The notes under the pieces were generated by a model. The model had not been told where the DNA came from. It worked only from the letters and a program-made list of their open reading frames with translations, and did no database searches. Source: a bacterium (GTDB taxonomy: Bacteria; Vulcanimicrobiota; Vulcanimicrobiia; Vulcanimicrobiales; Vulcanimicrobiaceae). From it: a stretch of DNA of 64,000 bases. A program made the translations under genes and the position numbers. Below, piece after piece: positions 7,348 through 49,330 of this stretch (the first letter of the stretch is position 1; each line of letters starts with the position of its first letter). Location: the NCBI GenBank assembly GCA_021786705.1, contig JAJYMV010000055.1, positions 5,306 through 69,305 of the forward strand, given 5' to 3'.

Positions 7348-7815
7348 TCAAACGACGCGGCAGAGCCGACGTTGCGCGAATTGGAGCACCTCGGGCGGGA
7401 GTACGTCGCTCGCCGAGCCGCTCCAACGGATCTCGTACGCCGTGGAATTCCGGATCGAAAAGAAGACCGCGATCTTGCCCGGCGGACGTTTGGCGACGAA
7501 GTCGATCTCGCCGGCGGCGCCCGGGCACTCCGCGAGCGCATGCGTTCCGCTCATCCTGCCGCCTCCCGGTGCGAGAACGACGCTCTCGAGAATATGCGTG
7601 GCGAGATCGGAGGGAGCGCCCTGGAAGGGCATCTGCGTCACCGAGACGCGCTCGCCGGGGTGCGCCGGAGAGATCCAGGAGCCCGCAGCGCTCCGGTGCC
7701 AGCCGACCGGCCCCGCCGCACCGCCGCACCCACTCAGGAGCAGCCCCGCCAGCAGCGCTGCTCCCCAAAGGCGGGTCGCGGAGGATGGAAGCGGAACGAA
7801 GGTGCGCGTGTTCAC
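7348..7815 (-). CDS. small lipoprotein, function unknown
   Basis: From GTG 7815: VNTRTFVPLPSSATRLWGAALLAGLLLSGCGG, a signal peptide with an LSGC lipobox. The upstream part of the track ORF is Arg-rich and looks non-coding. Start uncertain. Confidence 0.55.
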   Translation of the reverse strand: MNTRTFVPLPSSATRLWGAALLAGLLLSGCGGAAGPVGWHRSAAGSWISPAHPGERVSVTQMPFQGAPSDLATHILESVVLAPGGGRMSGTHALAECPGAAGEIDFVAKRPPGKIAVFFSIRNSTAYEIRWSGSASDVLPPEVLQFAQRRLCRVV

Positions 7816-35917: not shown

Positions 35918-36703
35918 ATGCGTACCCCAACGATCTTGCTCACCAACGACGATGGAATCGCTTCGCCCGGCTTGCACGCGCTCGCGCTCGCGCTCGCGGA
36001 GATCGCCCGGATCGTCGTCGTCGCCCCCGACGGCAACCGCAGCGGCGTGAGCCACGCGATCACGACCGGTGACTCCGTCGGCATTACGCCGTACCACGGA
36101 ATCGAGGGCATCCGTGCGTACGCCTGCACCGGGACGCCGGCGGATTGTGCGGTCATCGGCATCGGCGAGCTCTGCGGCGAGCGCCCCGACCTCGTCGTCA
36201 GCGGCATCAACGACGGCCCGAACCTCGCCGACGATGTGAACTACTCCGGGACGGTCGCCGGCGCGGTCGAGGCGGTCCTCCTCGGCGTTCGCGCGCTCGC
36301 CCTCTCGCTCGCGAGCGACCCCGACGACCGGTCGATGGCGCGCCGCTGGGAGAGCGCCGCCGAGCAGGCGCGCCTGCTCGTTCCGCAGGCCTTCGCCGAA
36401 TTGCCGCCCGAGCGGTACTGGAACGTCAACGTTCCCAACCTCGCTCCCGACCGGCTGCTCGGACGCCGTTTCACCAGCCTCGGGCGCAAGCGCTACGGCG
36501 ACACGATCTCCCGCACCGACGAGCGCCGCGACGCGCGGTATTACCGCGTCTGGAATCTTCCGGGGCGCGATGATAGCGACGATCCCGACTGCGATATCGG
36601 CGCCGTCCTCCACGGTTTCGTCAGTATCACGCCGATTGCGATCGACCGAACCGACCGAGAGGAGCTCAACCGTTTGCGGCTCGCCCCGGTTCCAGGGGCA
36701 TGA
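35918..36703 (+). CDS. surE: 5'/3'-nucleotidase SurE
   Basis: Start refined to ATG 35918 (MRTPTILLTNDDGIASPGL...APDGNRSG...GINDGPNLADDVNYSGTVAGA). Confidence 0.93.
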   Translation: MRTPTILLTNDDGIASPGLHALALALAEIARIVVVAPDGNRSGVSHAITTGDSVGITPYHGIEGIRAYACTGTPADCAVIGIGELCGERPDLVVSGINDGPNLADDVNYSGTVAGAVEAVLLGVRALALSLASDPDDRSMARRWESAAEQARLLVPQAFAELPPERYWNVNVPNLAPDRLLGRRFTSLGRKRYGDTISRTDERRDARYYRVWNLPGRDDSDDPDCDIGAVLHGFVSITPIAIDRTDREELNRLRLAPVPGA

Positions 36704-37203
36704 GAGAACGTTTTACCGTCGGCGAAGCCGCCCCGCTCGAACTCTTTCCCCGGCCGATCGAGCTCCCCGCACTCGTCATTTGGCCGCGACATACCGGTTG
36801 AACGTTCTTCGGTGAGCCGCTCGCGCAGTTGCGCGAGTCCGATCCAACGAAGCGCGACGCTCGCGTCTATATCGTGGTCGCCGCCGATGCAGCGACGACT
36901 GCGGCACTCTGCGGAGGCTACGGGGTCGCCGATGCCTGTATCGCCGATCCCGAACGGCGCACGCATCGCGCCGCACGGCTGCGCCCGGCCTCGATCCTCA
37001 CCTTCTTCTCGCGCGATCTCATACGACGCGCGTTGGAAAACCGACGCGCCGGCTTTCGACAAAACTGGGCGAAAGCGCGATGGGACGACCTCGGACGCGT
37101 GCCGGGAGCGATGCGTATCGACGCCGCCGGGCGGGTTGCCTGGATTCATCGCGGCGAACACGCCGGCGACCTTCCGCCGGTCGAAGAGCTGCTCGCACGC
37201 TAG
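36700..37203 (+). CDS. peroxiredoxin-like thioredoxin-fold protein with an in-frame TGA at 36799-36801 (candidate selenocysteine; alternatively a pseudogene)
   Basis: ATG 36700 overlaps the surE stop (ATGA). One frame reads MRERFTVGEAAPLELFPRPIELPALVIWPRHTG-TGA-TFFGEPLAQLRE...RIDAAGRVAWIHRGEHAGDLPPVEELLAR. The TGA sits where this fold carries its redox Cys. The ORF track calls only the TTG-started fragment 36829..37203. Confidence 0.5.
36820..36837 (+). promoter_or_regulatory. SECIS-like hairpin downstream of the in-frame TGA
   Basis: Perfect 7-bp stem CTCGCGC/GCGCGAG with an AGTT loop. It starts 18 nt after the TGA, and the loop G is 29 nt from the U of UGA. Confidence 0.4.
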
Positions 37204-37217
37204 CGCCGATGCGCTAG
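37200..37217. terminator. short palindrome containing both convergent TAG stop codons (Prx-like gene and clpX)
   Basis: CTAGCGC-cgat-GCGCTAG: 7-bp stem, 4-nt loop. There is no U-tract, so terminator function is inferred only from position. Confidence 0.35.
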
Positions 37218-38482
37218 GCGGGCATCTCCTTCTGACGATCGCCGTAGATCAACGTCGGTTGCTCGCGTTTTTCGACGACGTCTTTATTCACGACGCACTT
37301 CTTGACGCCGACGAGCGACGGAAGATCGTACATCACATCGAGCATGATCTCTTCGAGAATCGAACGAAGCCCGCGCGCGCCGGTCTTGCGGCCTTGCGCT
37401 TTCGCGGCAATGGAGACGAGCGCGTCCTTGGTGAACTGCAGATCGACGCCATCCATCGCCAGAATGCGCTGGAACTGCTTCACGAGCGCGTTCCGCGGCT
37501 CGGTGAGAATGCGCCGCAGCGTCAGATCGTCGAGCGCATCGAGCGTGACGACGATCGGCAGGCGCCCGATAAATTCCGGAATGAGACCGAACTTCAGCAG
37601 ATCCTCGGGGAGCAGCTGACCGAGCATTTTGCTCGCTCGAGCGACGCGTTTGCTCTCCGGATTCGCACGAAATCCCATGTTGTTCGCGGCAACTCGCGAT
37701 TCGACGATGCGTTCCAAACCATCGAACGCTCCGCCGCAGATGAAGAGCACGTTGGTGGTATCGATCTGGATGAATTCTTGGTGCGGATGTTTACGCCCGC
37801 CCTGCGGCGGTACGTTTGCCGTGGTGCCTTCGAGTATTTTCAGGAGCGCTTGTTGCACGCCCTCACCCGAGACGTCTCGCGTGATCGACGGGTTCTCGCT
37901 CTTCCGAGCGATTTTATCGATCTCATCGATATAAATGATCCCGCGCTCCGCGCGCTTGACATCGTAGTCGGCGGCTTGGATGAGCTTCAGCAAAATATTT
38001 TCTACATCTTCGCCGACGTAGCCGGCCTCGGTAAGCGAGGTCGCGTCGGCCATCGCGAGCGGAACGTCGAGAATCTTCGCCAGCGTTTGCGCGAGATAGG
38101 TCTTCCCCGAGCCGGTCGGCCCGACGAGAAGAATATTCGATTTCTGCAGCTCGACGTCGTCCGCCCCACTCCCGGCGGGGCCGGCATTGATGCGTTTGTA
38201 GTGGTTGTACACCGCAACTGCGAGCGCTTTTTTCGCGCGATCTTGCCCGATGACGTAGGTGTCGAGAATCTGGTTGATCTCGCGTGGCTTCGGCAGGGCC
38301 CGCAGACGCGCGCCGTCATCGGCAGCCTTGTAGAGCTCCTCTTCGATGATCTCGTTGCAGAGCTCGATGCATTCGTCGCAGATGTAGACGCCGGGCCCGG
38401 CGATCAATTTCCGCACGTTCTCCTGCGATTTTCCGCAGAAGCTGCACTTCAGTTGCCCCTTTTCATCCCCGAAACGAAACAT
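37214..38482 (-). CDS. clpX: ATP-dependent Clp protease ATP-binding subunit ClpX
   Basis: Zinc-finger CSFCGKSQ...CDEC, Walker [18 protein letters not shown]. 422 aa. Confidence 0.97.
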
Positions 38483-40517: not shown

Positions 40518-40592
40518 TGGAGCGGAAGACGAGATTCGAACTCGCGACCCTCGCCTTGGCAAGGCGATGCTCTACCACTGAGCTACTTCCGC
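40518..40592 (-). tRNA. tRNA-Gly (GCC), CCA encoded
   Basis: Reverse complement GCGGAAGTAGCTCAGTGGTAGAGC-A-TCGCC-TTGCCAA-GGCGA...TTCGAAT...CTTCCGCTCCA folds as a cloverleaf. The anticodon loop reads GCC. Confidence 0.93.
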
Positions 40593-40617
40593 ATCGAACG
40601 GCCCGCCGCGCGCGGGA

Positions 40618-40702
40618 TGGTGGGCAAGCAGAGACTCGAACTCTGACGGGTCTCCCCACTGGAACCTAAATCCAGCGCGTCTACCAGTTTCGCCACTTGC
40701 CC
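40618..40702 (-). tRNA. tRNA-Leu (TAG), long variable arm, CCA encoded
   Basis: GGGCAAGTGGCGAAACTGGTAGACGC-G-CTGGA-TTTAGGT-TCCAG plus a variable arm, TTCGAGT T-loop and CTTGCCCACCA. Confidence 0.93.
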
Positions 40703-40776
40703 TCAGGCGAACGCCCCATACTATAACGAGAACCCACCAAATCCTGCGCCGCCGAGCTACCGGCAAGAGAAAACTT

Positions 40777-40852
40777 TGGTGCACCGCGAGGGACTTGAAC
40801 CCCCAACCAAGTGATTAAGAGTCACCTGCTCTACCAATTGAGCTAGCGGTGC
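40777..40852 (-). tRNA. tRNA-Lys (CTT), CCA encoded
   Basis: GCACCGCTAGCTCAATTGGTAGAGC-A-GGTGA-CTCTTAA-TCACT...TTCAAGT...GCGGTGCACCA. Confidence 0.93.
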
Positions 40853-40858
40853 GTATTT

Positions 40859-40931
40859 TGCGCCCTCTGGGACTCGAACCCAGGACCAACGGATTAAAAG
40901 TCCGCTGCTCTACCGACTGAGCTAAAGGCGC
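40859..40931 (-). tRNA. tRNA-Lys (TTT), CCA not encoded
   Basis: GCGCCTTTAGCTCAGTCGGTAGAGC-A-GCGGA-CTTTTAA-TCCGT...TTCGAGT...AGGGCGCA. Confidence 0.9.
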
Positions 40932-40994
40932 AGAGGCGCGTATCAGTGTAAACGGCCGCCCAGGCTTTTGCAAGCGAAAAAGGTGCGCCTTTCG

Positions 40995-43790
40995 TTACGT
41001 GCCGGTCGCGGCCATCGAGGAAAGATTTTCTGCCTGGGCGACCAGGCGCTCGCGAAACTCCGCTGCCGTCAGCGGCTCGGCGAAAAGAAAGCCCTGCGCG
41101 TCGATACACCCGGCGGCGATGAGGACCTCGCGCTGCCGTTCGGTCTCCACGCCTTCGGCGACGACGCGGACGCCGAAGGCCTCCGAGAGCCGGACGAGCG
41201 TGTGGACGATCGGTTCGCTGGCGATCTCGCCGTTCGCGCCGGCAACGAACCCTTTGTCGATCTTAATGGCGTCGATCTTAAAGTGCTGCATGTAGCGCAT
41301 TGAGGAGTACCCGGTCCCGAAATCATCGATGCAGACGGCGAATCCACGCTCGCGAACCCGCTCGATTCTCTCCATCGCCAATTCCGTATCGTCGAGCATC
41401 GAATTCTCGGTGATTTCGATTGCCAGGTTGCTCGGCTTGAGCGCATATTCGTCGATCGCCGCGCTGAGCGTGCGGTCGAAGCCCGGTTCGAGCAGCTCCG
41501 TCGGCGTCGCGTTGAAATGCAGGGTGAACGTACTGATATCGATCCCGGCGCGTCGCCACGCGGCGAGTTGCGAACACCCGGTATCGAGCACGAAAGCGCC
41601 GATGCTCCGGGCGAAGCCGCCGCGCTCGGCGAGCGGAATGAAAAGCATCGGCGAAATAACGCCGCGCGTCGGATGATCCCAGCGCAAGAGCGCTTCCGCC
41701 CCTTTGATCGCGCCGGTGCGCAGATCGACGACCGGCTGGTAAAGCACGCGGAACTCGCGGCGCTCGACGGCGAAGCGCAGATCCGCGGCGAGCGCAACGC
41801 GCTCGGCGGCCGCCGTCTGCATCTCGGCATCGAAGACGGCGAAGCGTTCGCGCCCGACCGTCTTCGCGTACTGCATCGCAATTTCGGCATCGCGTAAGAC
41901 CTCGTCGCCGCGCTCGTACTTCTCCGGCCCGATCGCGATGCCGATGCTGGCGCCGAGGAAGATCGGGCGACCCTCGACGAGGAACGGTTTCGAAAGGTTT
42001 TCGAGCAATCGTCGCGCGAGCGATTCCACGTGGATGACGTCGCCGAGCGTGCCGACGAGAATCGCAAACTCGTCGCTACCCAGGCGAGCGACGGTATCGT
42101 CGGCATTTAAGGAACCGCGCAGACGAGTCGAGATCTGCCGAAGTACCGCGTCTCCGCCCGAGTGTCCGAGACTTTCGTTGACGTCCTTGAAATGTTCGAG
42201 ATCGACGAAAATGACCGAGAAAAGTGCCCCGGCTTCGCTGCGAGCGTGCTCGAAGCGCACCGCAAGCTGCTCTTCGAAGGCTTGCCGATTCGGGAGCCCG
42301 GTCAGCGCGTCGTGGAGACGTTGGAAGTTCAGCCGCCGCTCCTGCTGCTTGATCGTCGTCTTATCGGCAAACGTGCACATGGCGAATGGATGCTCGCCGT
42401 TCGAATCGGTCACGCCGGAGATAGTGACGTCGACCCACATCTCTTCGCTTAGGCCGGCGATCCGTCGTTCGACCGTAAAAGCATCGCGCGCGCCGCTCAT
42501 CACTTCGGCGAACTCGCTTTCGTGCCCGTCGAGAAGATGGTGGTGCACGTCGATCACGCTACGATAGACGGCGTTCGCGTCGATCGCTTTTCCGTGACGA
42601 TCGAGAATGGCGATCCCCATCGTCGAACCGTCGAAGACGGCGCGAAACTGTGCCTCGCTCAAATGGAGCGCGCGTTCGGCATCCTGGCGCGCGAGTTCGC
42701 TCGCCAATCGTTCCCGCTCGCGCTGCGCTTCATCGAGCGCCCGCTGCGCCCGCCCGTTCGCAATCGACCAGGCCAAGAGGAGCGCCCCGAAGAGCACCAA
42801 GAGGATCCCGACCACCGTGAGAGCGCGCGCTCGTTGCGCCGCGGCGTAGTTCGCTTCGCGGCTATCGAGATCGGCGACGAGCATCCCGCCGACGGCGCCG
42901 TAGAGGGCGTTTGTGCTCCTGGCCGCGGCGAGGCTCAGTGCGGAGATTTTGCGCTCCGTCGCGCCGTCGATCCGCGGGAGCAACGCCGCGCTCGCGAGCG
43001 CGTTGGAGAGCGCGGTTCCCGCCGCGACGTACGTTTTCGCGCGCACGACAAAGCGGTTGACCGCCGGGGTTTCGCCGCGCGGCAAGGACGCGCGCAACCT
43101 CGCGGCCGTGCGAGTGATGTGGTCTTGCGCGAGACTGTACGAACTCGCGACGGCGGTCGAGATTCCATTGAAGCCGATGCGAACCGGAAGCGCGAAGGTG
43201 CGAGCAGCGACGAGATGCCGCACCTCTAAGGTCGCGCGTCGCGGGAACATCAGCGAGCTCGGGAGATCGTTAAACGCGATATCCGCGAGATTTTGCGAAA
43301 CGTGAGAACGCTCGTAACTAAAATTGGAAGTGTCGCCGAGATTTTGGATCAAATTCACGAGCGGGTTCAACGGCGCGCTGACCGCATCGAGCCCTTTCCA
43401 GCCCATCGGCGCGCGTTGCGCCCTGACCCAACCCGCTTCGACCGGCGCGAGCGAGGCTGCGGCCTCAAGCGCGCGCGCGTTCGGCGCGAGCAGTAGCTTT
43501 TTCATCGCCGCCAATTCGCGGCCCATCGCTGCGCCGGCGCGCTTGCGTGCCGCCGCATTACCGGCGACGACGGCATCGCGATAGTCGAGGGCTGCATTCG
43601 CGAGCGGTTGCGAGCGACGAAACGCCTCGATCGCGATCCGCTCGCGCGTCGAGATCGAGGGCGCGGTGGCGACTGCCATAAAGCGCGTGTAAGCCAGCAA
43701 CTGTGAAACCGCAAGCGCGATTCCGACCAGAAGCAGCACGATCGCGAGGATGCTGGGAACCCGCTGTGCCCATCGCGTACGCTCGGCCAT
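40995..43790 (-). CDS. membrane sensor protein: large extracytoplasmic domain, PAS, GGDEF (GSDEF variant), EAL
   Basis: Start refined to ATG 43790 (MAERTRWAQRVPSILAIVLLLVGIALAV). Second TM helix LTVVGILLVLFGALLLAW. RLGSDEFAIL, EALLRW, DDFGTGYSS, KIDKGF. Confidence 0.9.
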   Translation of the reverse strand: MAERTRWAQRVPSILAIVLLLVGIALAVSQLLAYTRFMAVATAPSISTRERIAIEAFRRSQPLANAALDYRDAVVAGNAAARKRAGAAMGRELAAMKKLLLAPNARALEAAASLAPVEAGWVRAQRAPMGWKGLDAVSAPLNPLVNLIQNLGDTSNFSYERSHVSQNLADIAFNDLPSSLMFPRRATLEVRHLVAARTFALPVRIGFNGISTAVASSYSLAQDHITRTAARLRASLPRGETPAVNRFVVRAKTYVAAGTALSNALASAALLPRIDGATERKISALSLAAARSTNALYGAVGGMLVADLDSREANYAAAQRARALTVVGILLVLFGALLLAWSIANGRAQRALDEAQRERERLASELARQDAERALHLSEAQFRAVFDGSTMGIAILDRHGKAIDANAVYRSVIDVHHHLLDGHESEFAEVMSGARDAFTVERRIAGLSEEMWVDVTISGVTDSNGEHPFAMCTFADKTTIKQQERRLNFQRLHDALTGLPNRQAFEEQLAVRFEHARSEAGALFSVIFVDLEHFKDVNESLGHSGGDAVLRQISTRLRGSLNADDTVARLGSDEFAILVGTLGDVIHVESLARRLLENLSKPFLVEGRPIFLGASIGIAIGPEKYERGDEVLRDAEIAMQYAKTVGRERFAVFDAEMQTAAAERVALAADLRFAVERREFRVLYQPVVDLRTGAIKGAEALLRWDHPTRGVISPMLFIPLAERGGFARSIGAFVLDTGCSQLAAWRRAGIDISTFTLHFNATPTELLEPGFDRTLSAAIDEYALKPSNLAIEITENSMLDDTELAMERIERVRERGFAVCIDDFGTGYSSMRYMQHFKIDAIKIDKGFVAGANGEIASEPIVHTLVRLSEAFGVRVVAEGVETERQREVLIAAGCIDAQGFLFAEPLTAAEFRERLVAQAENLSSMAATGT

Positions 43791-43839
43791 AGAGCGAGCA
43801 TACGACGGCGAGCGCCGAATAACTCCTTCCTCAACGTTT

Positions 43840-43869
43840 CGCGACCCCACTTTTTCAAGCGGGGCCGCG
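43840..43869 (-). terminator. hairpin just downstream of tRNA-His (possible terminator or processing structure)
   Basis: On the minus-strand RNA, CGCGGCCCCGC-uugaaaaa-GUGGGGUCGCG forms 11 bp including 2 G-U pairs. Those two pairs are A-C mismatches on the other strand. No U-tract. Confidence 0.3.
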
Positions 43870-43882
43870 AAGCGAGCGGAAG

Positions 43883-43960
43883 TGGGGTGACTGACCGGGT
43901 TCGAACCGGCGACCTCCTGAGTCACAGTCAGGCGCTCTAACCAGCTGAGCTACAATCACC
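43883..43960 (-). tRNA. tRNA-His (GTG) with encoded G-1 and CCA
   Basis: G-GTGATTG-TA-GCTCAGCTGGTTAGAGC-G-CCTGA-CTGTGAC-TCAGG...TTCGAAC...CAGTCAC-C-CCA. Confidence 0.9.
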
Positions 43961-43977
43961 ACGCATGCGCATCGAAA

Positions 43978-44051
<74 letters not shown>

Positions 44052-44077
44052 GCGAGCCCTTCGGCATGCAATCCATC

Positions 44078-44151
44078 TCGGGACGACAGGATTTGAACCT
44101 GCGACTTCTTGCTCCCAAAGCAAGCGCTCTACCAAGCTGAGCTACGTCCCG
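44078..44151 (-). tRNA. tRNA-Pro (TGG), CCA not encoded
   Basis: CGGGACGTAGCTCAGCTTGGTAGAGCG-CTTGC-TTTGGGA-GCAAG...TTCAAAT...CGTCCCGA. Confidence 0.9.
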
Positions 44152-44995: not shown

Positions 44996-45588
44996 CGATC
45001 CATCGCCGCGAGCAATGCCCGCACGGCGCGAGCTCGATGGCTGACCCGCGCCTTCTCCTCGGCGCTCATCTCGGCGAAGGTTCGCCGCTCCCCATCCGGG
45101 AGAAAGAGCGGGTCGTACCCGAAGCCGGCGCTGCCGCGCTCGACGGTCGCGATCGTCCCATGCGTCGCGCCGAAGCCCTCGAAGCGACGCCCCTTCCCGT
45201 CGATCGCCAGCAGCGCACAGCAAAAGCGCGCGGTACGTCGCCCCGTCGGCACCTCGGAGAGCTCCGCGAGGAGGCTCGCGCGCCGCTGTGCCCACGTGAG
45301 TTCGAGCCCTCCGTATCGGGCCGAGCGAAGCCCCGGTGCGCCGTCGAGCGCGTCGATCTCTAATCCGCTATCGTCGGCGAAGACCGTCGCCGACTCGCCG
45401 AGTCGATCGAGTTCGCTGCGGAGTGCCGCGGCTTTTAACGCCGCGTTGCCGAAATAATCGTCGGCGTTCTCCTCGACCTCGGGATAGTGGATCGACGCCC
45501 CGAGTTCGATCCCGTGCGGGGCGAGCAGCGCCGCAAATTCCGCTCGTTTTCCATCGTTAGTGCTGGCGAGGAAGAATCGCTCGCTCAC
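44992..45588 (-). CDS. rdgB: non-canonical purine NTP pyrophosphatase (RdgB/HAM1)
   Basis: [44 protein letters not shown]. Confidence 0.93.
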
Positions 45589-47414
45589 GACTCGAGTTGG
45601 AGCACCGCCATGAATGCTTCCTGCGGAAGTTCGACCCGGCCGACACGGCGCATGCGCTCCTTTCCCGCCTTCTGTTTTTCGAGCAGTTTGCGTTTTCGGC
45701 TAATGTCGCCGCCGTAACATTTTGCGAGCACGTTTTTCCGCATCGCGCTGACGGTTTCGCGCGCGACGATCTTTCCGCCGATCGCCGCTTGAATCGGGAC
45801 CTCGAACATTTGCCGAGGAATCAGTTCCTTCAGCTTTTCGGCCAACAGACGCCCGCGATTCGATGCTTTATCGCGCGCGACGATAAAGGAGAGTGCGTCT
45901 ACTGCCTCACCGTTGAGAAGAATTTCCAATTTCACGAGGTCGCCCTCGCGATAACCGATCGGTTCGTAATCGAGCGACGCGTAGCCCTTCGTGCGCGATT
46001 TTAATTGATCGAAGAGATCGACGATCACTTCGATCAACGGCATCTCGTAACTGAGAATCACCCGGCCGTCGTGGAGATACTCCATGTTCAGCAGGGCGCC
46101 GCGACGCGATTGAATGATCTCCATGATCGCCCCCACGTACTCGGGCGGGGAGATAATCGTGGCTTTCACGTAGGGCTCTTCGAGTTGCGCGATGAGATTG
46201 GAGGGCGGCAACTTCGACGGATTATCGACGAGTTCGACGCTGCCGTCGGTTCGCGTCACCCGAAAGACCACCGAGGGCGAGGTGGCGATGAGGTCCAGGG
46301 TATAGTCGCGCTCGAGACGTTCTTGAACGATCTCCATGTGCAGCAAGCCCAGAAACCCGCAGCGAAAACCGAAGCCGAGCGCGATTGAGGTCTCGGGCTC
46401 GAAAACCAGCGCGGCATCGTTGAGCTTCAGCTTGTCGAGCGCGTCGCGGAGCGAATCGTAGGCCGCACCTTCGTTGGGATAGAGGCCGCAGTAGACCATC
46501 GGGACGGCCTTCCGATAGCCCGGAAGCGCGACGTGGGCCGGATTGTTCGCCGCGGTAATCGTATCGCCGACATCGATATCGCCCAGCGATTTGACGTTGG
46601 CGATGACGTAGCCGACGTCGCCGATACTCAGGCGTTTCGTCGGGCGCATCTGCGGCGCGAAGAGCCCCACCTCCGTGCACTCGTAGACCCGTTCGTGCGC
46701 CATCGACATAAATTTGGTGCCGCTCTCGATCGCCCCGTCGACGACGCGCACGTAACTGACGACGCCGCGGTATGGATCGAATTGAGCGTTGAACACGAGG
46801 CCGCGAACGAGATCGGTATGCCCCTGCGGCGCGGGAACCCGCGCGACGATCGCTTCGAGAATATTTTCGATGCCGATGCCGTTCTTCGCACTGGCGAGGA
46901 TGCATTCGCTCCGCTCGATCACCAACAGCTCTTCGATCTCGGCCATAACGCGCTCAGGATCGGCGGCCGGGAGATCGATTTTATTGATCACCGGAACGAT
47001 CGTAAGGTTATGTTCGAGCGCGAGGTGATAATTCGCCAACGTCTGCGCCTCGATGCCCTGCGCCGCATCGATAATCAACAGCGCGCCCTCGCAGGCCGCG
47101 AGCGAGCGTGAAACTTCGTACGAAAAATCGACGTGCCCCGGGGTATCGATGAGATTGAGCCGATAAATTTCGCCGTTGAGGGCTGGGTAACGAAGCGTGA
47201 CCGGATGCATGCGAATGGTGATGCCGCGTTCGCGTTCGAGATCCATTGCGTCGAGTTGCTGCTCTTCCAAGACGCGCGACTCGATTGTTTTGGTCATCTC
47301 CAAAAGGCGATCGGAGAGCGTGGTCTTTCCGTGATCGATATGCGCGATAATGCAAAAGTTTCGCGTATTCGAAATCGTCTGCAGCCGATGCGCGTGGTCG
47401 GTCGCTCTCTCCAT
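45585..47414 (-). CDS. lepA: elongation factor 4
   Basis: [28 protein letters not shown], and the LepA-specific C-terminal domain ([18 protein letters not shown]). Confidence 0.97.
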
Positions 47415-49182: not shown

Positions 49183-49330
49183 CTTCTCCTAACGTTGATC
49201 TTTCGATACACACCACGACGGAAGCCGGGTTGACTCGCGGCACCCGCGCCGATTCGCGAACCGTTGCTCCCTTCCGGGCCTGGCGGGGTTGACGAGGGCG
49301 CGCCGCGCGAGGCCCGGCCCCCATCATGGC
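49183..49330 (-). promoter_or_regulatory. long GC-rich structured 5' leader of the DUF4446-M23-yggT run (possible riboswitch; unconfirmed)
   Basis: On the minus strand, an extended -10-like TGCTATCAT lies at 49345-49337. About 150 nt of hairpin-rich leader follows, ending in the AGGAG Shine-Dalgarno 8 nt before ATG 49182. Confidence 0.3.

What the first reader, a model, noticed from the sequence alone, without database searches (positions are those of the whole stretch)
36700..37203. In-frame TGA at the catalytic-Cys position of a peroxiredoxin-like gene, followed by a SECIS-like hairpin: candidate selenoprotein
Seen in sequence:
- ATG 36700 overlaps the surE stop (ATGA).
- One continuous frame reads MRERFTVGEAAPLELFPRPIELPALVIWPRHTG, then TGA at 36799-36801, then TFFGEPLAQLRESDPTKRDARVYIVV...GAMRIDAAGRVAWIHRGEHAGDLPPVEELLAR, ending at TAG 37201-37203.
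- Third-position GC stays high on both sides of the TGA.
- 18 nt after the TGA is a perfect 7-bp stem, CTCGCGC/GCGCGAG (36820-36826 and 36831-36837), with an AGUU loop. The loop G is 29 nt from the UGA.

Established knowledge, from memory:
- AhpC/TSA_2-type Prx-like proteins carry the pattern ...RHxGCxFCRExLAxL at exactly this spot. Here it reads RHTG-U-TFFGEPLAQL.
- Bacterial SECIS elements are hairpins whose G-containing apical loop lies roughly 16-37 nt after the UGA.

Inference: this is either Sec recoding or a recent TGC-to-TGA pseudogene. The ORF track calls only the 3' fragment from TTG 36829, which would lack the active site.
Basis: partly seen in the sequence, partly recalled or inferred. 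Interest (0 to 1): 0.75.

Follow-up and report, generated by a model that had tools for sequence, protein, structure and literature searches.

The report
Unannotated selenoprotein gene, peroxiredoxin-like
The in-frame TGA is almost certainly a selenocysteine codon at the active site of a small peroxiredoxin-like redox protein, kept with its recoding hairpin in every relative found, while public annotations record only a truncated fragment.

Summary
ATG 36700 overlaps the surE stop. One frame runs to TAG 37203 with a single TGA at 36799-36801. A hairpin (AGUU loop) lies at 36819-36838.

It is not a pseudogene. All 15 distinct Eremiobacterota (Vulcanimicrobiota) orthologues, down to 68% nucleotide identity and in the same surE|gene|clpX position, keep ATG, 33 codons, TGA, 133 codons and stop. 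dN/dS is 0.21 before the TGA, 0 between the TGA and the called TTG start, and 0.17 after.

The TGA column is Cys in 117 of 119 homologues that cover it. The same TGA, with the same hairpin core at the same +21 offset, occurs in two Planctomycetota MAGs and 31 metagenome contigs. Eight of nine distinct Cys-codon sequences lack it.

The hairpin meets all four published bacterial SECIS criteria. One stem pair changes G-C to G-U to A-U. TGA is an ordinary stop elsewhere in the window.

selA, selB, selD and tRNA-Sec were not found in about 0.6 Mb of fetched DNA. The rest of the genome could not be searched.

Verdict: a real but unannotated selenoprotein of the Prx-like2 / SelL-related superfamily, a new member of a known kind.

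The parts
36700..37203 (+). Full coding sequence of the Prx-like2 / SelL-related selenoprotein: 167 residues with Sec at residue 34, then stop TAG
   Evidence: One frame. The same architecture is found in 15 distinct orthologues. dN/dS is 0.21 (codons 1-33), 0 (35-43) and 0.165 (44-167). Family hits are below cut-off: NF040769 at 67.6 bits and PF13911 at 19.2 bits.
36799..36801 (+). Sec-encoding UGA at the catalytic Cys column (motif RHTG-U-TFF)
   Evidence: Invariant TGA in all orthologues. The column is Cys in 117 of 119 covering homologues. TGA is also present here in Planctomycetota MAGs and in 31 metagenome loci.
36809..36842 (+). SECIS-like element. Lower stem 36809-36812 / 36839-36842. 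Six-nt 5' internal loop 36813-36818. Upper stem 36819-36826 / 36831-36838. Apical loop AGUU 36827-36830.
   Evidence: RNAfold gives -18 kcal/mol. The element meets the bSECIS criteria quoted. The upper stem is 98% paired across 44 distinct Sec-type sequences; one pair reads GC 26, GU 12, AU 6 and never A-C. The lower stem is 94% paired in Eremiobacterota, with one C-G to U-A double change. The synonymous sites of CTC GCG CAG TTG are invariant.
36829..37203 (+). The 124-aa ORF that gene callers report, from a TTG inside the SECIS loop and 3' arm. It is an annotation artefact, not a separate gene.
   Evidence: the ORF listing. All 10 close database hits are this 124-aa fragment. Codons 35-43 upstream of it show 0 non-synonymous against 222 synonymous pairwise differences.
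35918..36703 (+). surE (5'/3'-nucleotidase). Its stop overlaps the selenoprotein start (ATGA), so the two are probably one transcription unit.
   Evidence: Pfam SurE is recorded for the syntenic genes, and the 261-aa form implies a start at 35918.
37214..38482 (-). clpX, convergent, ending 10 nt after the selenoprotein stop. It marks the conserved 3' boundary of the locus.
   Evidence: with the synteny tables.

Best explanation
Window 36700-37203 is one gene for a 167-residue thioredoxin-fold, peroxiredoxin-like (Prx-like2 / SelL-related) redox protein. Its catalytic residue is selenocysteine, encoded by UGA 36799-36801.

**Proposed mechanism.** The mRNA folds into a hairpin 17-39 nt after the UGA (8-bp G+C-rich stem, AGUU loop), inside the codons for helix alpha-1 (P-L-A-Q-L-R-E-S). 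This acts as a bacterial SECIS. SelB-GTP-Sec-tRNA(Sec) binds the loop, in particular its G-U dinucleotide. It delivers Sec when the ribosome reaches the UGA, so translation continues to TAG 37203.

**Proposed function.** The product is probably a one-selenol oxidoreductase or peroxidase (motif U-T-F-F, with no Cys at +3). It would be regenerated by one of the two conserved Cys (C71, C80) or by an external thiol. It is probably co-expressed with surE as part of stress defence.

**Shown here:**
- the conserved in-frame UGA;
- protein-coding constraint on both sides of it;
- the Cys/Sec pair;
- the conserved hairpin and its association with UGA;
- a thioredoxin / Prx fold for a Cys homologue.

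**Inferred:** SelB-dependent Sec insertion, the enzymatic activity, the resolving residue and co-transcription with surE.
For: 1. All 15 distinct Eremiobacterota orthologues keep ATG, 33 codons, TGA, 133 codons and stop, in identical synteny. They are 68-93% identical in nucleotides, and 10 come from GTDB species-level MAGs.
2. dN/dS is 0.21 before the TGA and 0.165 after. Between the TGA and the called TTG start there are 0 non-synonymous against 222 synonymous pairwise differences, and no start codon.
3. The TGA column is Cys in 117 of 119 homologues. Near relatives read RHxGCxF[F/Y]; distant ones read RHFGCxFCR.
4. The TGA is also at this column in 2 Planctomycetota MAGs at about 40% identity. 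It is there in 31 of the 40 metagenome loci that cover the column, and in contigs of up to 5 Mb.
5. The hairpin meets the four bSECIS criteria quoted from PMC13188914:
   - loop of 4 nt with G at position 2, followed by U;
   - stem of 8 bp;
   - 25 nt between the UGA and the loop;
   - energy of -18 kcal/mol.
6. All 44 distinct Sec-type sequences have loop AGUU and at least 6 contiguous pairs at +21 to +38. Only 1 of 9 distinct Cys-type sequences does (Fisher p about 1e-8, not corrected for phylogeny).
7. Across those sequences the stem is 98.4% paired. One pair reads GC 26, GU 12, AU 6; 1-2 of 500 shuffles reach the observed values.
8. Codons at the TGA and hairpin are more often invariant than elsewhere: 6 of 13 against 10 of 75 (p = 0.011). 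The Leu codon TTG is invariant there, although TTG is only 14% of Leu codons in the window.
9. TGA is the ordinary stop of 10 of 32 coding-like ORFs in the window, including valS and surE.
10. An AlphaFold model of Cys homologue P0013 (pLDDT 75.7) puts the Cys between strand 35-40 and helix 46-64. The best PDB matches are BCP/PrxQ, ResA and human PRXL2B.
Against: - No selA, selB, selD or tRNA-Sec was found in the window, in about 8 kb beyond its left end, or in about 0.6 Mb of related loci. The rest of the genome could not be searched, so the machinery is unproven for this phylum.
- No paper in the held library links Eremiobacterota / Vulcanimicrobiota with selenocysteine.
- The hairpin's energy is not unusual for this G+C content (z = -1.6).
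- The peptide L-A-Q-L-R-E in G+C-rich codons is nearly self-complementary by itself, so part of the stem comes free with the protein sequence.
- Covariation rests on essentially one pair, and probably on few independent events.
- The window protein scores below the curated cut-offs of PF13911 (19.2 against 27) and NF040769 (67.6 against 120).
- There is no proteomic or 75Se evidence.
Confidence: 0.88

Rival explanations
1. Recent pseudogene: a TGC/TGT-to-TGA nonsense mutation inactivated a Cys-type Prx-like gene, and the hairpin is a coincidence of G+C-rich codons.
For: Hairpins of this kind are not rare in the window: 25 on the two strands, with z = -1.6. The family normally has Cys at this column.
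Against: The TGA is kept in 15 distinct orthologues at 68-93% nucleotide identity, with no other lesion. dN/dS is about 0.2 on both sides. The same TGA is found in other phyla.
Confidence: 0.01
2. Split gene: translation ends at the TGA to give a 33-residue peptide, and a separate 124-residue protein starts at TTG 36829, as gene callers annotate.
For: All public gene calls use the TTG or an equivalent start. One caller also lists the 33-codon ORF.
Against: Codons 35-43 contain no start codon. Even so, all 6 variable sites are at third positions and all changes are synonymous. The TTG lies in the hairpin loop and 3' arm. The split would fall exactly at the active site, between strand beta-1 and helix alpha-1. 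In other lineages the called start moves (MEALAQ.., MLAQ.., MRE..), tracking whichever start codon follows the TGA.
Confidence: 0.03
3. The UGA is read through, but as an amino acid other than Sec. Examples are Cys carried by a tRNA(Sec)-like tRNA through SelB, or Trp/Cys by near-cognate suppression helped by the hairpin.
For: Sec machinery was not found in the DNA that could be reached. From memory, natural recoding of Sec-type UGA to Cys has been described (Mukai et al. 2016). The evidence here shows read-through, not the identity of the residue.
Against: The hairpin fits the SelB-type SECIS consensus, including the G-U in its loop. The site is a classic Cys/Sec pair in a redox fold. A UGA with SECIS that encodes Cys would gain nothing over TGC, yet it persists across phyla, and a TGT form exists beside it (L038 against L036).
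Confidence: 0.05
4. Genome-wide reassignment of TGA to a sense codon in this lineage.
For: None beyond the in-frame TGA itself.
Against: TGA ends 10 of 32 coding-like ORFs in the window, including valS, surE and the GTPase ORF 45585-47414 that corresponds to lepA. No other credible in-frame TGA was found in the window.
Confidence: 0.01

Closest known systems
[quoted passage not shown] Listed in Table 1 of the 2026 review PMC13188914, which credits its ref. 60.
   Same: Same superfamily (Prx-like2 / AhpC-TSA_2). One Sec at the first position of the CxxC-equivalent motif. A bacterial gene with a SECIS inside the coding region.
   Different: The motif here is U-T-F-F; relatives read U-x-F-F, U-x-F-Y or U-x-F-C, and none of the sequences seen reads UxxS. 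The representative (MDX2448127.1) could not be fetched, so identity of the two clades is untested. The best NCBIfam match here is NF040769, which is not in the review's table.
SelL, a Prx-like selenoprotein with a UxxU diselenide motif (Shchedrina et al. 2007, cited in PMC2398784), and NCBIfam NF040769 'SelL-related redox protein'.
   Same: NF040769 is the only NCBIfam hit (E = 1e-18). Thioredoxin fold, with Sec at the N-terminus of helix alpha-1.
   Different: One Sec, not two. The score of 67.6 bits is far below the family cut-off of 120. SelL is known from aquatic animals and marine bacteria (from memory); this clade comes from soil, peat and mine-drainage bacteria.
Eukaryotic SelU / PRXL2 (FAM213) proteins, Pfam PF13911, including human prostamide/prostaglandin F synthase PRXL2B.
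   Same: Same Pfam family at a weak score. The PRXL2B structures 9us9 and 9usa have the highest sequence identity (19%) in the Foldseek list, with TM 0.6-0.7. From memory, SelU is a Sec-containing member in fish and algae.
   Different: Eukaryotic members use a 3'-UTR SECIS and a CxxC / UxxC motif. The identity of 19% is to the modelled Cys homologue P0013, not to the window protein.
Prx-like thiol:disulfide oxidoreductase selenoproteins (PF00578, UxxC / UxxU) and Sec-peroxiredoxin (PxxxTxxU).
   Same: Peroxiredoxin-type thioredoxin fold, with BCP/PrxQ as the top structural matches. Sec replaces the peroxidatic or nucleophilic Cys.
   Different: PF00578 is not hit by the window protein. The PxxxTxxC/U spacing is absent: the window reads P-R-H-T-G-U, and relatives read L-R-H-F-G-U.
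E. coli fdhF-type bacterial SECIS and the bSECISearch consensus.
   Same: A hairpin just 3' of the UGA inside the coding region. A small apical loop with G then U. The spacing, stem length and energy all lie within the consensus.
   Different: The sequence is unrelated. The loop is AGUU on a perfectly paired 7-8 bp G+C stem, with no bulged U. The same 18 nt recur across at least two named phyla because they also encode the conserved L-A-Q-L-R-E.

Membership tests
Bacterial selenoprotein gene (Sec-UGA plus SECIS) | In-frame UGA conserved in orthologues, with coding constraint on both sides | tested here: met
   15 distinct orthologues. dN/dS is 0.21, 0 and 0.165 in the three segments.
Bacterial selenoprotein gene (Sec-UGA plus SECIS) | UGA aligns with a conserved Cys in homologues (Cys/Sec pair) | tested here: met
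   Cys in 117 of 119 covering homologues. Close Cys/Sec pairs such as L038 and L036 exist.
Bacterial selenoprotein gene (Sec-UGA plus SECIS) | bSECIS consensus: apical loop of 3-9 nt with G in its first two positions, upper stem of 4-16 bp, 16-37 nt from UGA to loop, MFE of -7.5 kcal/mol or lower | tested here: met
   Loop AGUU, 8 bp, 25 nt, -18 kcal/mol, against the criteria quoted.
Bacterial selenoprotein gene (Sec-UGA plus SECIS) | Hairpin conserved, and specific to the UGA-containing forms | tested here: met
   44 of 44 Sec-type against 1 of 9 Cys-type sequences. The stem is 98.4% paired, with a G-C / G-U / A-U series at one pair. A Sec type fetched later (L087-89) has one G-G mismatch.
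Bacterial selenoprotein gene (Sec-UGA plus SECIS) | selA, selB, selD and tRNA-Sec in the same genome | not testable with these tools
   None was found in the 64-kb window, in about 8 kb beyond its left end, or in the other fetched loci, about 0.6 Mb in all.
Bacterial selenoprotein gene (Sec-UGA plus SECIS) | Selenium in the protein (75Se labelling or mass spectrometry) | not testable with these tools
   This needs an experiment.
Pfam PF13911 AhpC-TSA_2 | Score at or above the gathering threshold (27 bits) | tested here: not met
   19.2 bits, E = 0.0016, residues 54-154. Relatives carry precomputed PF13911 hits.
NCBIfam NF040769 SelL-related redox protein | Score at or above the curated cut-off (120 bits) | tested here: not met
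   67.6 bits for the window protein and 80-90 bits for Cys homologues P0013, P0015 and P0016. It is a related clade outside the curated subfamily.
SelL | UxxU (diselenide) motif | tested here: not met
   The motif is U-T-F-F, and there is a single TGA in the frame.
cd02970 'UxxS' peroxiredoxin-like selenoprotein (review Table 1) | UxxS motif; cd02970 domain | tested here: not met
   UxxF here and UxxF/Y/C in relatives. The cd02970 model is not in the available libraries, so the domain criterion was not tested.
Thioredoxin / peroxiredoxin fold | Beta-alpha-beta core with the nucleophile at the N-terminus of helix alpha-1 | tested here: met
   Shown for the Cys homologue P0013 only: pLDDT 75.7, Cys45 between strand 35-40 and helix 46-64. 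Foldseek probability is 1.0 to BCP/PrxQ, ResA and PRXL2B. The window protein itself could not be modelled.
Typical peroxiredoxin (PF00578) | PxxxTxxC/U active-site motif and a PF00578 hit | tested here: not met
   No PF00578 hit. The motif spacing is P-x-x-T-x-U in the window, and relatives lack the P and T.

The most novel reading that the evidence does not exclude
The U-x-F-[F/Y/C] clade may be a distinct selenoprotein family in which the Sec form predominates, and which is missing from current inventories.

- About 85% of its nearest database clusters are truncated 3' fragments (98 of 115 newly returned hits).
- It is spread through aerobic soil lineages: Eremiobacterota / Vulcanimicrobiota, Planctomycetota and, judging from names only, Acidobacteriota.
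- Its SECIS is frozen inside the codons for helix alpha-1.

On this reading it would be the first evidence that Eremiobacterota decode selenocysteine. It could also be a main reason these aerobes keep the Sec machinery.
Probability: 0.4. Interest if true: 0.6.

Novelty: new member of a known kind. Interest (0 to 1): 0.5.

Why it matters
**Annotation.** Every public gene call found for this gene and for about a hundred relatives is a 124-151 residue fragment without its active site. They are named 'hypothetical protein' or 'AhpC/TSA family protein'. No entry with U was present.

**Biology.** It would place selenocysteine use in Eremiobacterota / Vulcanimicrobiota. The held literature reports none for this phylum. 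It would also place it in largely aerobic soil bacteria, whereas the 2026 review states that aerobes rarely retain selenoproteins.

**Mechanism.** The 18-nt SECIS core doubles as the codons for L-A-Q-L-R-E. This gives a clean natural example of an RNA signal freezing both the synonymous sites and the peptide:
- Sec forms read L-[A/T/V]-Q-L-R;
- Cys forms drift to LVSLRE, LTELRE or FADLRA and to the CTG Leu codon.

**Practice.** 'UGA, then 18 nt, then CTCGCGCAGUUGCGYGAG' is a ready search key for correcting these annotations.

Tried and rejected
- **Sec machinery.**
  - tblastn with E. coli SelA, SelB and SelD (fetched) against the window and all loci gave only a GTPase-domain hit at window 46845-47345. 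That hit falls in ORF 45585-47414, which corresponds to lepA in the syntenic loci.
  - ARAGORN found no tRNA-Sec.
  - Extending the window through edge proteins gave about 8 kb on the left with no sel genes, and nothing on the right.
  - A database search with E. coli SelD, SelA or SelB was not run. Only the best 120 hits are listed, and these would all be enterobacterial.
- **Rfam.** No family matches the hairpin. Rfam gave no bacterial SECIS match.
- **Structure of the window protein.** The Cys homologue P0013 was modelled instead.
- **PDB by sequence.** No significant hit; best E = 0.43.
- **First locus scans.** Two alignments were too diverse to yield search patterns. Narrower ones worked.
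- **Second recoded gene in the window.** A GC3-filtered scan gave one candidate, a TGA at 7350 on the minus strand. Its downstream frame is Arg-rich nonsense, so it is an ordinary stop. The first version of the scan was too strict and missed even the target gene.
- **Covariation within Eremiobacterota alone.** It was uninformative: 332 of 500 shuffles reach the observed values. Only the cross-lineage set gave a signal.
- **SelL paper.** PMC1955791 is not held.
- **Shine-Dalgarno claim.** AGGGG at 36694-36698 lies only 1 nt from the ATG, so no ribosome-binding site is claimed.
Full report
**1. The observation**

The sequence is as described. ATG 36700 overlaps the surE stop in ATGA. One frame of 168 codons runs to TAG 37201-37203, with a single TGA at 36799-36801. 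It reads ...VIWPRHTG*TFFGEPLAQLRE....

CTCGCGC (36820-36826) pairs with GCGCGAG (36831-36837) around AGTT. The mechanical ORF list gives only TTG 36829..37203 (124 aa).

RNAfold adds a G-U pair, making an 8-bp upper stem (36819-36838). It also adds a 4-bp lower stem (36809-12 / 36839-42). The energy is -18 kcal/mol.

Two caveats apply.
- GC3 is 0.64 before and 0.73 after the TGA, against 0.74-0.86 in five neighbouring genes.
- The fold energy is not exceptional: z = -1.6. Comparable tetraloop hairpins occur 25 times on the two strands of the window.

**2. Not a pseudogene and not two genes**

A protein search returned ten close hits at 73-96% identity. All of them were called as the same 124-aa fragment. 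I fetched their DNA and scanned GTDB species genomes.

This gave 15 distinct orthologues at 68-93% nucleotide identity. All lie between surE and clpX-clpP-tig. All have ATG overlapping the surE stop, 33 codons, TGA, 133 codons and a stop.

| Segment | dN/dS |
|---|---|
| Codons 1-33 | 0.21 |
| Codons 35-43 | 0 |
| Codons 44-167 | 0.165 |

Codons 35-43 lie after the TGA, before the called TTG, and contain no start codon. They show 0 non-synonymous against 222 synonymous pairwise differences. All six of their variable sites are third positions. That stretch is therefore translated, which requires read-through of the TGA.

TGA is otherwise an ordinary stop. It ends 10 of 32 coding-like ORFs in the window, including valS and surE.

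The organisms are Eremiobacterota, now named Vulcanimicrobiota, including Baltobacteraceae.

**3. The TGA sits on the catalytic Cys**

Three 190-aa homologues at about 40% identity read WPRHCGCPFF where the window reads WPRHTG-U-TFF.

A profile search of 1.84 billion representatives gave 1122 hits. In an alignment of the best 150, the column is Cys in 117 of the 119 sequences that cover it. Near relatives read RHxGCxF[F/Y]; distant ones read RHFGCxFCR.

About 28 hits are fragments that begin just after the column. One fragment ends at ...RHCG.

Family assignment rests on these results.
- NCBIfam NF040769 'SelL-related redox protein': 67.6 bits against a cut-off of 120.
- Pfam PF13911 AhpC-TSA_2: 19.2 bits against a cut-off of 27.
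- An AlphaFold model of homologue P0013 (pLDDT 75.7) places the Cys between strand 35-40 and helix 46-64. This is the thioredoxin-fold nucleophile position.
- Foldseek finds BCP/PrxQ peroxiredoxins, ResA and human PRXL2B.

**4. The hairpin behaves as a SECIS**

It meets the four consensus criteria quoted in the 2026 review PMC13188914.

| Criterion | Consensus | Window |
|---|---|---|
| Apical loop | 3-9 nt, G in first two positions, usually then G or U | AGUU |
| Upper stem | 4-16 bp | 8 bp |
| UGA to loop | 16-37 nt | 25 nt |
| MFE | -7.5 kcal/mol or lower | -18 kcal/mol |

*Within Eremiobacterota.* The codons ACC GGT TGA and CTC GCG CAG TTG are invariant at their synonymous sites. Invariant codons number 6 of 13 in codons 32-46 against 10 of 75 elsewhere (p = 0.011). 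The only stem changes are G-C to G-U, G-U to A-U, and one lost terminal pair. The lower stem shows one C-G to U-A double change.

*Across lineages.* This is the decisive comparison.
- Two Planctomycetota MAGs at 38-40% protein identity also carry TGA at this column. They have the identical 18 nt CTCGCGCAGTTGCGCGAG at the same +21 offset.
- A metagenome scan returned 52 loci. Of the 40 that cover the column, 31 have TGA and 9 have a Cys codon. The Sec motifs are U-PFC, U-PFY, U-[L/I]FF, U-TFF and U-SFF.
- All 44 distinct Sec-type sequences have loop AGUU and at least 6 contiguous pairs. Only 1 of 9 distinct Cys-type sequences does (Fisher p about 1e-8, not corrected for phylogeny).
- The exception, L038 (TGT), is identical downstream to the Sec form L036, so it is a recent switch.
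- Cys forms mostly use CTG for the loop Leu, which gives AGCU. Their peptide also drifts: LVSLRE, LTELRE, FADLRA.
- On the 44 Sec-type sequences the stem is 98.4% paired. One pair reads G-C 26, G-U 12, A-U 6 and never A-C. Only 1-2 of 500 shuffles reach the observed values.
- A Sec type fetched later (L087-89) has one G-G mismatch.
- TTG is only 14% of Leu codons in the window's genes, yet it is invariant in the Sec forms. It supplies the G-U dinucleotide of the loop. From memory of the E. coli fdhF and Moorella SelB-SECIS work, SelB contacts that dinucleotide.

**5. What could not be shown**

No selA, selB or selD (tblastn with the E. coli proteins) and no tRNA-Sec (ARAGORN) is present in any of the following:
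- the window;
- about 8 kb beyond its left end;
- the other fetched loci, about 0.6 Mb in all.

No paper in the held library links this phylum with selenocysteine. Rfam gave no bacterial SECIS match.

**6. Mechanism**

*Shown:* read-through of a conserved UGA at the catalytic Cys column, and a conserved, UGA-specific hairpin at SECIS distance.

*Inferred:* SelB-GTP-Sec-tRNA(Sec) binds the AGUU hairpin and inserts Sec at residue 34. The product would be a one-selenol, Prx-like2-type oxidoreductase or peroxidase.
- It has no Cys at +3.
- The conserved C71 and C80 are candidate resolving residues.
- The ATGA overlap suggests co-expression with the survival gene surE.

**7. Comparison with what is known**

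Selenoproteins of this superfamily are already known.
- SelL is a UxxU Prx-like selenoprotein.
- Eukaryotic SelU belongs to PF13911 (from memory).

This clade differs in three ways.
- Its motif is UxxF/Y/C.
- It scores below the curated cut-offs of the nearest models.
- Its hosts are soil, peat and mine-drainage bacteria.

It is also mis-annotated throughout. Of the 115 newly returned hits among the 120 best clusters in a profile search, 98 are 3' fragments (almost all 125-158 aa) that start within a few residues after the Sec column. Some are labelled Terriglobales or Acidoferrales. No entry contains U.

**8. Verdict**

I rate confidence at about 0.88. What remains open is the machinery and direct proof of selenium.

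It is a new member of a known kind, possibly a new subfamily. Its interest is moderate: a phylum not reported to use Sec, widespread mis-annotation, and a clear case of dual coding constraint.

Noticed in passing
L036 690-1256 and L038 3001-3567 (metagenome contigs Ga0247727_10297345 and Ga0137457_1000814): Two near-identical genes differ at the catalytic codon: TGA in L036 and TGT in L038. The 57 nt after that codon are identical, including the intact hairpin. This looks like a very recent Sec/Cys switch caught with its SECIS still in place.
   Followed up: partly
Proteins P0178-P0278, for example P0252, P0264 and P0271: About 98 clusters, almost all 125-158 aa, start at MEALAQLRE, MRE, LRE or MLAQLRE, just after the Sec column. 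They are annotated 'AhpC/TSA family protein' or 'peroxiredoxin-like, partial'. Some are labelled Terriglobales, Acidoferrales or Acidiferrales. They are probably truncated calls of Sec forms. DNA was checked for only one of them (P0189, giving L087-89).
   Followed up: partly
P0269: One truncated family member is labelled 'Candidatus Nitrosotalea sp.', a thaumarchaeon. This could be contamination of the MAG or a transfer. Bacterial-type in-gene SECIS elements would not be expected to work in an archaeon.
   Followed up: no
L011 (GCA_035531575.1, DATKSP010000026.1) 825-1328: This contig is labelled Candidatus Dormibacteraeota. It nevertheless has the Eremiobacterota surE|gene|clpX|clpP|tig order and 76% identity to the window protein. 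It is probably a taxonomic mislabel or a mis-binned contig.
   Followed up: no
L033 1265 onward (Planctomycetota MAG JANOGB010000083.1): After the expected C-terminus (...FATPVRR) there is no stop, and the frame stays open for about 600 more Arg/Ala-rich codons. The sister sequences L034 and L036 stop there. This is a lost stop or an assembly error.
   Followed up: no
window 7348-7350, minus strand: This TGA has coding-like GC3 on both sides and was picked up as a second recoding candidate. The frame downstream translates to Arg-rich nonsense, so it is an ordinary stop.
   Followed up: yes
window 40518-40932 and 43883-44151 (minus strand); 49220-49319 (minus strand): Two tRNA clusters (Gly-Leu-Lys-Lys and His-Arg-Pro) flank a 976-aa GGDEF-EAL protein at 40995-43925. 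A bacterial small SRP RNA lies at 49220-49319. The tRNA clusters recur in the related genomes scanned.
   Followed up: no
L090 18481-19731 (beyond the left end of the window): This is a 416-aa Fe-S protein with CCG domains, of the GlpC-like type. The 2026 review lists an 'Fe-S oxidoreductase-like protein' among selenoprotein families. This copy is called as an intact ORF and was not examined for a Cys/Sec site.
   Followed up: no
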